A stretch of 64,000 bases of DNA from a virus. The DNA lies in the IMG/VR virus record IMGVR_UViG_3300050343_000163; one strand, 5' to 3'. Positions 19,349-47,078 of this stretch are shown piece by piece. Position 1 is the first letter of the stretch; the number at the start of each line of letters is the position of its first letter. Below the pieces are notes generated by a model. It ran no database searches. It saw only the letters and a program-made list of their open reading frames with translations, and had not been told where the DNA came from. A program made the translations under genes and the position numbers.

Positions 19349-19528
19349 TATAGGGGTGGGAGGTTGGATTTCTGTGTACCAACAAAAGACGGGCATTACT
19401 ACAGAGTAATTCATCTTTGCCTGAGACCCGACTGGTTGGTCGGTTCATATCCTAAGATAGCAGCACCACCTGTGTCTCATCACCTTAACCAGCAGTATGC
19501 CAGTAAGTTTATTCAGTCACTCCCTATA
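19349..19528 (-). ncRNA. Structured RNA, probably the manA motif
   Basis: ~180-nt GC-richer intergenic stretch closed by TATAGGGAGTG/CACCCCTATA helix, internal stems; sequence resembles recalled cyanophage manA RNAs; lies among tRNA genes. Confidence 0.75.
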
Positions 19529-19546
19529 GAGATGATCAATCTCTAA

Positions 19547-19618
19547 AGCCTAATGTCAGATTTGAACTGACGACCTACGCTTTACAAAAGCGTTGCTCTA
19601 CCACTGAGCTAATCAGGC
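19547..19618 (-). tRNA. tRNA-Thr(TGT), CCA not encoded
   Basis: GCCTGAT/ATTAGGC acceptor, ACGCT-TTTGTAA-AGCGT anticodon arm, GTCAG-TTCAAAT-CTGAC T-arm. Confidence 0.97.
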
Positions 19619-41792: not shown

Positions 41793-41937
41793 TAGTTTTC
41801 TCCATGCAATAAACCATAATAAAGGGGAGAGAAGGGTTCATTTTTCCACCTCGCATAATTCTACCACTATTTATTTTTGGTACATTCAATTAAAGAAAAA
41901 TTGCAACGAATATTATTGCCTACTAGTTTATACTCAT

Positions 41938-41965
41938 AAAAAAAGAGAGGGTCAAAACCCTCTCT
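41938..41965 (-). terminator. Intrinsic terminator after the DUF4278 gene
   Basis: AGAGAGGGT-TTTG-ACCCTCTCT followed by a T run. Confidence 0.9.
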
Positions 41966-41980
41966 GGATAAGTAAGTTAA

Positions 41981-42148
41981 TCACTTTTTATAAAGTTGAC
42001 CACGATAGCAGAATGTGCCATGGGTCTCTTTAGATTCTACACTACCTGTATCATACTTAACACCACGATATGTAGTGTGAAGAATCTGAGCGTCGTGTAG
42101 AGCAGATCTCTTGATGATCTGCTTCTTGATTTGATTAAGTGTGTTCAT
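41981..42148 (-). CDS. DUF4278-like peptide, 55 aa
   Basis: Manual translation with two YRG motifs (TTYRGVKY, FCYRGQLY); AGGAG SD 7 nt upstream. Confidence 0.85.
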   Translation of the reverse strand: MNTLNQIKKQIIKRSALHDAQILHTTYRGVKYDTGSVESKETHGTFCYRGQLYKK

Positions 42149-42182
42149 GAGTTGACTCCTGAAGAAGTAGGGTGGTTAGTCC

Positions 42183-42366
42183 CCGTTCCTTCAGTCGTTT
42201 GCGTCCCAAGGGTAGCATTCAGGGGTTGATTCCTTCATGACCTCAATCAATTCCACCTTATATTCGGGGGGAATATTCTCGTTTGTCCTCATCCGAAGCA
42301 TAACTGCATCAGCTTGAGCACATGTGAGTGATGAATAGAATAATAATTCTAGCATGGGATGAACGG
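42183..42366 (-). ncRNA. Glutamine-II (Downstream-peptide) riboswitch aptamer 2 with ~150-nt insertion in P2
   Basis: CCGTTCATCCC ... GGGACGCAAACGACTGAAGGAACGG. Confidence 0.8.
42191..42355 (-). CDS. 54-aa protein nested in aptamer 2
   Basis: MLELLFYSSLTCAQADAVMLRMRTNENIPPEYKVELIEVMKESTPECYPWDAND; GGAG SD 11 nt upstream. Confidence 0.75.
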   Translation of the reverse strand: MLELLFYSSLTCAQADAVMLRMRTNENIPPEYKVELIEVMKESTPECYPWDAND

Positions 42367-42368
42367 CT

Positions 42369-42415
42369 CCGTTCCGCGACTTACTTGCGTCCCACCCTAA
42401 AGTGGGATGAACGAT
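42369..42415 (-). ncRNA. Glutamine-II-type riboswitch aptamer 1
   Basis: ATCGTTCATCCCAC-TTTAGG-GTGGGACGCAAGTAAGTCGCGGAACGG. Confidence 0.75.
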
Positions 42416-42421
42416 GGTATA

Positions 42422-42450
42422 AGCATACCATACTATGTATGCTTTGTCAA
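42422..42450 (-). promoter_or_regulatory. Sigma70 promoter of the riboswitch transcript
   Basis: TTGACA-N17-TATGCT; inverted repeat AAGCATAC-N8-GTATGCTT across spacer and -10. Confidence 0.85.
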
Positions 42451-42452
42451 CC

Positions 42453-42468
42453 TGTATTTCTTAATACA
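42453..42468. promoter_or_regulatory. NtcA binding site
   Basis: TGTA-TTTCTTAA-TACA, exact TGTA-N8-TACA. Confidence 0.8.
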
Positions 42469-46930: not shown

Positions 46931-47030
46931 TAGTGCAGGGAAACACTGATAATATATTCCTGTTGCACCCTCAGCAGCAGGTATGAAAGACTGTTGTTTA
47001 ATGACGCTGTTTAGTCTTGGTAAGGCGTCG
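46931..47030 (-). ncRNA. Structured psbA leader, PhotoRC-II-like
   Basis: GACGC..GCGTC stem, TTTCATACCTG..GAGGG..CAGGAATA core, AGTG-TTTCCCTG-CACT stem; family recalled, not searched. Confidence 0.65.
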
Positions 47031-47078
47031 TAAGTATCTATGTTAGGAAAGCAAGATGCTTCGTAACATTTGTTTACC

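What the first reader, a model, noticed from the sequence alone, without database searches (positions are those of the whole stretch)
41981..42415. Tandem glutamine-II riboswitches with a whole protein gene nested in the second aptamer
Seen: two aptamer-like units share CGTTCATCCCA...TGGGACGCAA...GAACGG. In unit 1 P2 closes a 6-nt loop. In unit 2 the same P2 encloses a 54-codon ORF whose ATG lies in the P2 5' strand, whose last codons (W-D-A-N-D) are the aptamer core, and whose stop is the TGA of the conserved GACTGAAG. Its likely SD (GGAG) abuts P1 of unit 1. A DUF4278 double-YRG peptide follows. The 11-nt direct repeat also lets the 5' strand of unit 1 pair with the 3' half of unit 2, and AGTCG (unit 1) is complementary to CGACT (unit 2). 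Established: Downstream-peptide/Gln-II riboswitches precede DUF4278 and gifB-type genes in cyanobacteria. Inference: a translation-coupled relay in which glutamine binding to unit 1 gates ribosomes that melt unit 2, plus an unstudied two-Cys microprotein.
Basis: partly seen in the sequence, partly recalled or inferred. Interest (0 to 1): 0.9.

Follow-up and report, generated by a model that had tools for sequence, protein, structure and literature searches.

The report
Phage glutamine riboswitch with a nested gene
A marine cyanophage carries a double glutamine-sensing RNA switch in which a real 54-codon gene sits inside one stem-loop of the sensor, an arrangement conserved in hundreds of phages and not described in the papers I could search.

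Summary
A sigma-70-type promoter starts an RNA directly at a glutamine aptamer. A second aptamer follows, and its P2 stem (UCCCA/UGGGA) closes over a 54-codon ORF. After it come an anti-SD/SD platform, a DUF4278 (IF17-like) ORF and a terminator.

Phage ACG-2014f has a 4-nt loop where the window has the ORF. Other phages carry ORFs in both P2 loops.

P2 of unit 2 covaries across the 150-190 nt insert. The ORF is coding: dN/dS is 0.14, two Cys are invariant, and it matches phrog_504.

AGUCG of unit 1 pairs with CGACU of unit 2. All 29 evaluable variants are compensated, and a second lineage with an 8-nt helix covaries 115/115. The two sensors are therefore physically coupled, not merely tandem. 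Rfam's Glutamine (type I) model passes its threshold only across both units of insert-free relatives, which explains why this element is under-detected in phages.

An anti-SD helix (CUGAAG/CUUCAG) covaries: G-C 55, A-U 25, G-U 4, A-C 0.

The mechanism is inferred. Glutamine-stabilised folding frees the DUF4278 SD and buries the nested AUG. The literature I could search describes tandem glutamine riboswitches, but neither a nested gene nor a bridging helix.

The parts
42453..42468 (-). TGTA-N8-TACA, an NtcA-box-like palindrome 2 nt upstream of the -35 hexamer
   Evidence: Read. GTA-N8-TAC occurs in 173 of 281 distinct upstream regions of related loci. Binding was not tested.
42422..42450 (-). 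Sigma-70-type promoter TTGACA-17-TATGCT
   Evidence: 10 of 12 matches. In relatives the -10 hexamer ends 7-9 nt before CGTTCA, so the RNA should start at the aptamer.
42409..42413 (-). 'a': CGUUC, the P1 5' strand of unit 1
   Evidence: Invariant in about 450 loci.
42390..42407 (-). P2a hairpin UCCCAC-UUUAGG-GUGGGA
   Evidence: Four of five pairs covary in alignment A2.
42382..42389 (-). Conserved joining strand CGCAAGUA (aptamer core and 5' half of the E-loop)
   Evidence: Aligned to the Rfam Glutamine consensus. Invariant.
42377..42381 (-). 'c': AGUCG, the 5' strand of the inter-unit helix P3
   Evidence: Pairs with CGACU at 42197-42193. G-C, A-U and U-A variants are all compensated: 29/29 and G-C 54 / A-U 9 in A2.
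42369..42375 (-). 'd': GGAACGG, the P1 3' strand of unit 1. With the AG that follows it forms GGAG.
   Evidence: Linker statistics.
42361..42365 (-). 'e': CGUUC, the P1 5' strand of unit 2
   Evidence: It can pair locally with 'd' (predicted) or with 'h'.
42353..42359 (-). P2b 5' strand UCCCAUG, containing the nested ORF's start codon
   Evidence: The AUG is at this exact offset in 100/104 loci.
42191..42355 (-). Nested ORF, 54 codons plus TGA; a two-Cys helical-hairpin microprotein (phrog_504)
   Evidence: dN/dS 0.14 in frame, 0.82 and 1.80 in the other frames. phrog_504 at 4.7e-31. Two invariant Cys. AF2 pLDDT 81.5 with two helices. 255 clusters at 50% identity.
42204..42210 (-). P2b 3' strand CUUGGGA
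   Evidence: Long-range pairing with 42359-42353 covaries: C-G, U-G and U-A at one pair, plus CCCC/GGGG and UCUUA/UAAGA variants.
42198..42203 (-). Core of unit 2, CGCAAA
42193..42197 (-). 'g': CGACU, the 3' strand of the inter-unit helix P3. Its last U begins the nested ORF's stop codon.
42189..42194 (-). CUGAAG, the anti-SD 5' strand. It overlaps P3, the E-loop GAAG and the stop codon.
   Evidence: Pairs with CUUCAG at 42164-42159. G-C 55, G-U 4, A-U 25, A-C 0; G-C 41 / A-U 19 / G-U 3 in A2.
42184..42188 (-). 'h': GAACG, the P1 3' strand of unit 2
42156..42164 (-). CUUCAGGAG: the anti-SD partner plus the Shine-Dalgarno of the DUF4278 gene
   Evidence: The helix is present in the predicted MFE.
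41981..42148 (-). DUF4278 / IF17-like ORF, 55 aa with two YRG motifs
   Evidence: Pfam PF14105 at E 6.5e-5, 23.7 bits, below the 25.3 cut-off. phrog_545 at 9.7e-31.
41936..41965 (-). Intrinsic-terminator-like hairpin followed by a T-run

Best explanation
This is a glutamine-responsive leader made of two coupled aptamers. It controls an IF17-like (DUF4278) gene, and one aptamer stem-loop has been colonised by a small protein gene.

Shown:
- The two units are joined by a covarying helix (AGUCG/CGACU).
- P2 of unit 2 pairs across the 156-nt insert that holds the ORF.
- The strand CUGAAG, which overlaps that helix and the E-loop, alternatively pairs with CUUCAG next to the DUF4278 SD.
- The nested ORF is under purifying selection.

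Inferred mechanism:
- Without glutamine, the anti-SD helix closes the DUF4278 ribosome site.
- With glutamine, CGACU-GAAG-GAACG is held in P3, the E-loop and P1, so the SD opens (an ON switch, as shown for gifB).
- The same folded state pairs the nested gene's AUG into P2 and its upstream region into P1. The nested gene is therefore translated mainly from nascent or unliganded RNA.
- Its ribosomes in turn unfold unit 2 up to the stop codon in the anti-SD strand.
- The likely result is opposite or time-ordered output of the two small proteins from one sensor.

Which P1 strands pair cannot be told. The options are 'tandem with a kissing helix' and 'domain-swapped, two three-way junctions sharing P3'. 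I lean to the second.
For: Homology of the insertion site:
- ACG-2014f has CCAG-GAAA-CUGG where the window has the ORF.
- In a sample chosen only by the inter-unit junction, 104/114 loci have a long insert, 98/104 of them a multiple of 3 nt; 10 have short hairpins.
- S-CAM1, S-TIM4 and L009 carry ORFs in both P2 loops.
- S-B43 has a single aptamer with a nested ORF.

Pairings:
- A2 is 97.1% paired and 0/500 shuffles reach it. P2a, P3, P2b and the anti-SD helix each have changes on both sides.
- P3 variants are compensated 29/29.
- The 8-nt lineage covaries 115/115 at its end pair.
- The anti-SD helix shows no A-C combination in 84 loci.

Rfam: the Glutamine model passes its threshold only across both units (41.1-43.6 bits).

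Coding.

Fixed codon positions: start in P2 in 100/104 loci and stop in the anti-SD strand in 96/103.

Predicted MFE keeps the anti-SD helix, the d-e hairpin and P2b.

RNA-library contigs cover 41962-42392 exactly, including one 350-nt contig that runs from unit 1 into the DUF4278 ORF. This is only a weak hint of a single transcript.

The ON direction is taken from Klahn 2018 (PMC6212724).
Against: - No ligand binding or translation was measured.
- The P1 strands are invariant in about 450 loci, so the bound fold is not resolved.
- P2b beyond 5 bp is not strictly kept: the U of AUG is paired in only 39/62 sequences.
- A ribosome stopping inside the anti-SD strand could switch DUF4278 on whatever the glutamine level, which would blur a reciprocal logic.
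- In the 5-bp lineage, GGAG upstream of the nested AUG correlates with ORF presence. That fits a model where unit 1 activates the ORF.
- The window's unit 1 scores below both Rfam thresholds.
Confidence: 0.45

Rival explanations
1. Translation-coupled relay. Glutamine bound to unit 1 holds GGAACG in its own P1. This frees CGUUCAUCCCAUG and the GGAG for ribosomes. Translation of the nested ORF then melts unit 2 and the anti-SD helix and switches DUF4278 on by coupling. Both genes would be ON with glutamine.
For: - The GGAG-forming linker accompanies the nested ORF in the 5-bp lineage: 101/106 against 0/11.
- The stop codon lies inside the anti-SD strand in 96/103 loci.
- In nascent RNA the a-d and d-e pairings are predicted to be nearly isoenergetic (0.33 against 0.66 at 57 nt), so a ligand could tip the balance.
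Against: - The GGAG association may be by descent. The 8-bp lineage has about 80 nested ORFs with almost no GGAG.
- GGAG lies 10-11 nt from the AUG.
- Insert-free relatives keep the full anti-SD/SD platform.
- This model gives no role to the covarying P3 and P2b helices.
- S-CAM1 and S-CAM9 ORFs stop before the anti-SD strand.
Confidence: 0.2
2. Passenger gene. The P2 loop is simply a tolerant site, like intron loops that hold ORFs. The small gene is translated more or less constitutively, and the riboswitch works only on RNAs free of ribosomes. There is no designed cross-talk.
For: - P2 loops vary freely in length: 12-48 nt in unit 1.
- The same protein family sits in either unit or in a single aptamer.
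- The ORF region is not unusually structured (z = -1.44).
Against: - A passenger could start anywhere in the loop and use its own SD. Instead the AUG is at the same stem position in 100/104 loci, and the frame into the aptamer core is fixed in 96/103.
- Every one of 180 distinct family members found here is flanked by aptamer halves.
- No copy was found in 401 cyanobacterial genomes searched.
Confidence: 0.2
3. Degenerate or repurposed RNA. The aptamer-like halves no longer bind glutamine and serve only as an mRNA structure, for stability or as a protein-binding site.
For: The window's units score below the Rfam thresholds. No binding data exist for this variant.
Against: - The ligand-core strands CGUUCA, ACGCAA and GGAACG are invariant in about 450 loci, while the stems covary.
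- Insert-free relatives pass the Rfam threshold.
- The downstream gene is the usual DUF4278 partner of glutamine riboswitches (PMC6212724).
Confidence: 0.05

Closest known systems
Glutamine riboswitch type 1 (glnA RNA, Rfam RF01739; Ames and Breaker 2011; Klahn et al. 2018, PMC6212724)
   Same: It has the core strands CGUUCA, ACG(C/G)AAGUA and GAAGGAACG, a P1/P2/P3 three-way layout and an E-loop. It sits upstream of a DUF4278 gene and has an anti-SD platform. Insert-free relatives pass the Rfam threshold.
   Different: P3 is not a local hairpin; it is formed between two units. The P3 'loop' holds a second aptamer-like junction, and P2 of that junction holds a gene. The window copy is missed at Rfam's gathering threshold.
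Glutamine-II riboswitch (Downstream-peptide motif, RF01704)
   Same: It shares the binding-core sequences and the association with short DUF4278 ORFs in marine picocyanobacteria. If unit 1's CGUUC pairs with its own GGAACG, the topology (GGAACG inside the loop of the AGUCG/CGACU helix) is that of type 2.
   Different: The scores are lower: 25.7 bits in the window against a cut-off of 33. The type 2 3' hairpin that closely flanks GGAACG is absent. GAAG and AAGUA, the E-loop halves of type 1, are both present.
Tandem glutamine riboswitches (Weinberg 2010, PMC2864571; Sherlock 2022, PMC9481103: 157 doublets, classed as pseudo-cooperative with separate expression platforms)
   Same: Two glutamine aptamers lie in series on one leader.
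   Different: Here the two are joined by a covarying helix and share one expression platform. This is more like the tandem glycine riboswitch. Neither a nested ORF nor a bridging helix is mentioned in those papers.
ORFs housed in loops of structured RNAs (homing-endonuclease genes in group I/II intron loops), and dual-function RNAs (RNAIII/hld, SgrS/SgrT; yfr6, named in PMC2864571)
   Same: A protein gene lies inside a peripheral loop of a folded functional RNA, and a long-range helix closes over it.
   Different: Here the host RNA is a metabolite sensor, the start codon lies in the closing stem, and the stop codon lies in the expression platform. Comparison from my own knowledge; not tested.
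Riboswitch-controlled upstream ORFs (B12 switch of M. tuberculosis rpfB, bioRxiv 10.1101/2024.07.19.603033; listed)
   Same: A short translated ORF in a riboswitch leader links sensing to expression of a downstream gene.
   Different: By its abstract (listed) and my own recollection, not read here, that uORF lies in the expression platform after the aptamer, not inside an aptamer stem-loop. Here the ORF also encodes a conserved protein family.

Membership tests
Glutamine riboswitch type 1 (RF01739) | Score at or above Rfam's gathering threshold (35 bits) | tested here: inconclusive
   Window: no hit at gathering threshold; unit 1 alone scores 30.5 bits. Insert-free relatives score 41.1, 43.6, 41.4, 41.0 and 38.4 bits, but only as a composite across both units. 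The window's unit 2 cannot be scored because of the 156-nt insert.
Glutamine riboswitch type 1 (RF01739) | P1 CGUUC/GAACG and a P2 hairpin closed next to the conserved A | tested here: met
   Both units have them. P2a and P2b covary. P1 never varies, which says nothing for or against it.
Glutamine riboswitch type 1 (RF01739) | P3 helix flanked by the E-loop strands AGUA and GAA | tested here: met
   Met only across units. AAGUA-AGUCG lies in unit 1 and CGACU-GAAG in unit 2. Covariation is 29/29 and 115/115.
Glutamine riboswitch type 1 (RF01739) | Selective binding of L-glutamine | not testable with these tools
   Needs in-line probing or ITC.
Glutamine-II riboswitch (RF01704) | Score at or above the gathering threshold (33 bits), with a 3' hairpin whose loop carries GGAACG (pseudoknot) | tested here: not met
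   Window 25.7 bits. Relatives 32.1, 22.3 and 21.6 bits. One relative reaches 34.0 bits (L360). No local 3' hairpin surrounds GGAACG.
DUF4278 / IF17-like small proteins (PF14105) | Pfam match above the curated cut-off; YRG motifs | tested here: inconclusive
   23.7 bits against a cut-off of 25.3, E 6.5e-5. Two YRG motifs are visible. phrog_545 at 1e-30. No test of action on glutamine synthetase.
phrog_504 (phage small proteins of unknown function) | Full-length profile match | tested here: met
   4.7e-31, residues 1-54 on profile positions 1-53 of 53.
Intrinsic translational riboswitch platform (anti-SD/SD) | An alternative helix between an aptamer strand and the SD region, kept by covariation | tested here: met
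   CUGAAG/CUUCAG: G-C 55, A-U 25, G-U 4, A-C 0.

The most novel reading that the evidence does not exclude
One ligand-sensing fold gives opposite translational outputs for two genes, one of which lies physically inside the sensor. Glutamine-bound folding buries the nested gene's AUG in P2/P1 and at the same time frees the SD of the IF17-like gene. The phage would thereby toggle between two microproteins according to the host's nitrogen status. The two binding sites would be coupled through a shared P3 in a domain-swapped double three-way junction.
Probability: 0.3. Interest if true: 0.9.

Novelty: new variant of a known kind. Interest (0 to 1): 0.8.

Why it matters
Riboswitch aptamers are treated as compact non-coding sensors placed ahead of the genes they control. 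Here a conserved protein gene lies inside the sensor. Its start codon is in an aptamer stem and its stop codon is in the expression platform, so RNA folding and translation must compete on the same nucleotides.

The arrangement is widespread. It appears in 417 phage records by BLAST, whereas an earlier survey found only two glutamine aptamers in cyanophage genomes (PMC5473149). It is the majority form in a sample drawn without reference to the ORF.

It also shows that 'tandem' glutamine riboswitches can be physically coupled by a helix, which changes how their dose-response should be modelled.

Biologically, it points to a phage circuit that reads host glutamine, and perhaps 2-oxoglutarate through an NtcA-like box. 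The circuit would deploy an IF17-like protein and an unknown two-Cys protein during infection of marine Synechococcus and Prochlorococcus.

It gives a natural system for studying co-transcriptional folding against ribosome loading. It also gives search models a reason to allow large inserts in aptamer loops.

Tried and rejected
- The genome-contig scan for the junction pattern CGGAACGG-N1-5-CGTTCA returned only chance hits in unrelated bacteria; the pattern was too short.
- A stricter junction pattern and the nested-protein profile found nothing in 401 cyanobacterial genomes sampled. This means 'not found in those searched', not absent, and the pattern is phage-specific.
- Scans for P3 variants at positions 3 and 4 found none, so only one pair of the 5-bp helix is informative.
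- P1 strand variants that could tell a-d/e-h from a-h/d-e: none usable in about 450 loci. One contig has CGGUC without compensation.
- Foldseek against the PDB gave no match at E <= 0.001, and the weak rows are generic helical hairpins. The Atlas feature search returned only the protein's own phage clusters. Function remains unknown.
- Signal peptide idea: S-B43 and the unit-1-type ORFs have signal-like N-termini. The window's N-terminus, MLELLFYSSLTC, is too short and carries no positive charge, and the lipobox does not fit. Left open.
- RNA-library contigs are assemblies. They cover 41962-42392 exactly in two runs of one study, but they cannot prove transcription, ends or strand. Flanks without cover count for nothing.
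- Thermodynamic comparison of the constrained folds gives tandem -71.1 and nested -72.4 kcal/mol in the window, and -32.5 and -35.8 in ACG-2014f. The difference is too small to decide, and pseudoknots are not modelled.
- Enrichment of A at the Pro third-codon position opposite the U of AUG (39/62) was considered as evidence for a 7-bp P2b. I rejected it as too dependent on phylogeny.
- Ames and Breaker 2011 could not be read, so I cannot exclude that it mentions a bridging helix.

Full report
**Context.** The window is a T4-like cyanomyovirus. Rfam finds manA RNA, PhotoRC-II and three tRNAs, and the locus matches 417 Synechococcus/Prochlorococcus phage records. The finding lies on the minus strand.

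**Anatomy.**
- A TTGACA-17-TATGCT promoter (42450-42422) ends 8 nt before unit 1. In relatives this distance is 7-9 nt, so the RNA should begin at the aptamer.
- Unit 1 (42413-42369): CGUUC, A, hairpin UCCCAC/GUGGGA, CGCAAGUA, AGUCG, C, GGAACGG.
- After a 3-nt linker (AGC) unit 2 begins: CGUUC, A, UCCCAUG.
- The AUG opens a 54-codon ORF (42355-42191). Its last codons read UGG GAC GCA AAC GAC UGA, which are the P2 3' strand, the aptamer core, the strand CGACU and the first bases of GAAG.
- GAACG follows at 42188-42184.
- Then come a small hairpin, CUUCAGGAG (42164-42156), the 55-aa DUF4278-like ORF (42148-41981) and a terminator (41965-41936).

**Is unit 2 a real aptamer split by a gene?** Yes, on four lines of evidence.
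- ACG-2014f has the same leader with P2 of unit 2 as CCAG-GAAA-CUGG and no ORF.
- I drew 120 IMG/VR loci using only the inter-unit junction as the criterion. Of the 114 that could be evaluated, 104 have a long insert, mostly 153-192 nt, and 98 of those 104 are a multiple of three. The other 10 have 12-27 nt hairpins.
- The stem closing the insert covaries:
  - common form UCCCA/UGGGA
  - UCCUA/UGGGA (G-U)
  - UCCUA/UAGGA in S-CAM9 and L147
  - UCUUA/UAAGA in L160
  - CCCCA/UGGGG in L141 and L144
  - UCCUC/GGGGA in L302
- The 5' strand of this stem is non-coding, so coding constraint cannot explain these changes.
- On a 63-sequence alignment the whole structure is 97.1% paired. No shuffle of 500 reaches it, and slid controls give 31-54%.

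**The nested ORF is a gene.**
- dN/dS is 0.14 in frame against 0.82 and 1.80 in the other frames. Variable sites by codon position are 22, 8 and 35.
- It is phrog_504 (4.7e-31).
- A profile search finds 255 clusters at 50% identity, nearly all 50-90 aa.
- Two Cys are invariant, and every one of 103 ORFs in the sample drawn without reference to the ORF has exactly two.
- AlphaFold gives a helical hairpin at pLDDT 81.5. No fold or family match suggests a function.
- All 180 distinct members found in the loci examined are flanked by aptamer halves. None was found in 401 cyanobacterial genomes searched.
- Homologous ORFs also sit in P2 of unit 1 in S-CAM1, S-TIM4 and L009 (66-68 aa), and in about 20% of the junction sample.
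- S-B43 has a single aptamer with a nested ORF.
- The start codon is at the same stem position in 100/104 loci. The stop is the U(G/A)A of GACU(G/A)AAGG in 96/103.

**The two units are coupled.**
- AGUCG of unit 1 is complementary to CGACU of unit 2.
- A scan for variants at the second position found 33 loci. All 29 that can be evaluated are compensated: AAUCG with CGAUU 26 times and AUUCG with CGAAU 3 times, in several sequence backgrounds.
- A second lineage has 8-nt strands, AGCCGACU in both units, which pair antiparallel with two C-A mismatches.
  - Its end pair is U-A in 91/91 loci and A-U in 24/24.
  - Other variants repair the mismatches.
- The window's 5-bp form equals the 8-bp form minus three pairs on both strands.
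- The tandem-riboswitch review classes glutamine doublets as independent, pseudo-cooperative units (PMC9481103). Weinberg 2010 says only that some occur in tandem.

**Which family?**
- Rfam's Glutamine (type 1) model passes its threshold on insert-free relatives only as a composite. The composite is the 5' strand and P2 of unit 1, AAGUA, a P3 made of AGU and ACU with a 38-41 nt 'loop', then GAAG and GAACG of unit 2. It scores 41.1-43.6 bits.
- The Glutamine-II model scores lower.
- Two bound folds fit the covariation:
  - Tandem units whose joining strands kiss.
  - A domain-swapped fold with two three-way junctions at the two ends of P3. In this fold the inner junction is closed by the local GAACG/CGUUC hairpin.
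- The second fold reproduces the type 1 layout, including the E-loop halves, and needs fewer changes from the predicted unliganded fold. The P1 strands never vary, so this is a preference, not a result.

**Expression platform.**
- CUGAAG overlaps P3 and the E-loop. It pairs with CUUCAG abutting the SD.
- The G/A polymorphism in it is matched by C/U: G-C 55, A-U 25, G-U 4, A-C 0.
- The same base is the middle of the nested stop codon, which is UGA or UAA accordingly.
- Insert-free relatives keep this platform.
- By analogy with gifB (ON switch; PMC6212724), I infer that glutamine releases the SD.

**Fate of the nested gene (inference).**
- The region from about -20 to +3 of its AUG consists of GGAACGG, the linker, CGUUCA and the P2 strand. 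Any folded state of unit 2 occludes it.
- I therefore favour translation from nascent or unliganded RNA and repression in the bound fold, with ribosomes resetting the aptamer.
  - It is helped by the GGAG/ORF association in one lineage (101/106 against 0/11).
  - It is weakened by the other lineage lacking GGAG, and by giving no role to P2b and P3.

**Expression.** Metatranscriptome contigs match 41962-42392 exactly, including a 350-nt contig spanning both ORFs. This is a weak hint only.

**Under-detection.** The window gives no glutamine hit at Rfam's gathering threshold. A 2017 survey reported only two glutamine aptamers in cyanophage genomes (PMC5473149). The nested gene hides the second unit, and the split P3 lowers the score of the first.

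**Verdict.** The mechanism remains open. The element is a new architectural variant of the glutamine riboswitch.

Noticed in passing
window 42453-42468 (minus strand): TGTA-N8-TACA sits 2 nt upstream of the -35 hexamer. GTA-N8-TAC occurs in 173 of 281 distinct 90-nt upstream regions of related loci, most often 8 or 2 nt before TTGAC. Chance expectation is about 2% (my estimate). This suggests an NtcA-type input on the same promoter.
   Followed up: partly
window 42408-42413 and 42360-42365 versus 42143-42148: GUUCAU in both aptamer 5' strands is the exact complement of AUGAAC at the DUF4278 start. The unconstrained MFE pairs unit 1's copy with it. This is seen only in the subfamily whose protein starts with MN, not in the AUGGCA/AUGACU subfamily, so it may be chance.
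   Followed up: partly
window 42169-42183 (minus strand): A small hairpin lies right after GAACG: GGGG-ACUAACCA-CCC in the window, and GGA-UUAAAA-UCC or GGGU-UUAACA-ACC in relatives. In some relatives it is replaced by a longer insert with a GGAUCC...GAAAG hairpin. Its role is unknown.
   Followed up: no
L084 400-600, L089 606-812, L009 1264-1464: ORFs nested in unit 1 start about 11 nt from the predicted RNA 5' end (CGUUCAUCUUAUG), so they would be nearly leaderless. Their N-termini look more like signal peptides than those of the unit 2 ORFs.
   Followed up: partly
proteins P0003, P0005, P0007 and others; P0091, P0112, P0148: Public gene calls often extend the nested ORF to 76-89 aa by reading upstream through unit 1, giving peptides such as DASKSRNGAVHPM. 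By the promoter position those starts lie outside the predicted transcript, so these are probably over-extended calls.
   Followed up: partly
L463, L564 (8-nt lineage): In a few insert-free loci the unit 2 strand is AGUUCGCU, which can form a local two-pair stem with a UUCG loop. Rfam then hits unit 2 alone above threshold, 40.3 bits for L463. Local and inter-unit P3 may therefore interconvert in evolution.
   Followed up: partly
L453 about 750-756: One metagenome contig has CGGUCA instead of CGUUCA in unit 2, with no compensating change in either GGAACGG. This is either a sequencing error or a tolerated mismatch.
   Followed up: no
proteins P0087 (2922 aa) and P0178 (2402 aa): Two very long proteins match positions 13-46 of the nested-protein profile in 10-12 stretches each. 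They are probably repeat or coiled-coil noise.
   Followed up: no
window 19353-19618 and 46946-47045: manA RNA (174.5 bits) lies directly beside a tRNA gene, and there is a PhotoRC-II RNA (51.7 bits), both on the minus strand. These are known cyanophage RNA motifs.
   Followed up: no
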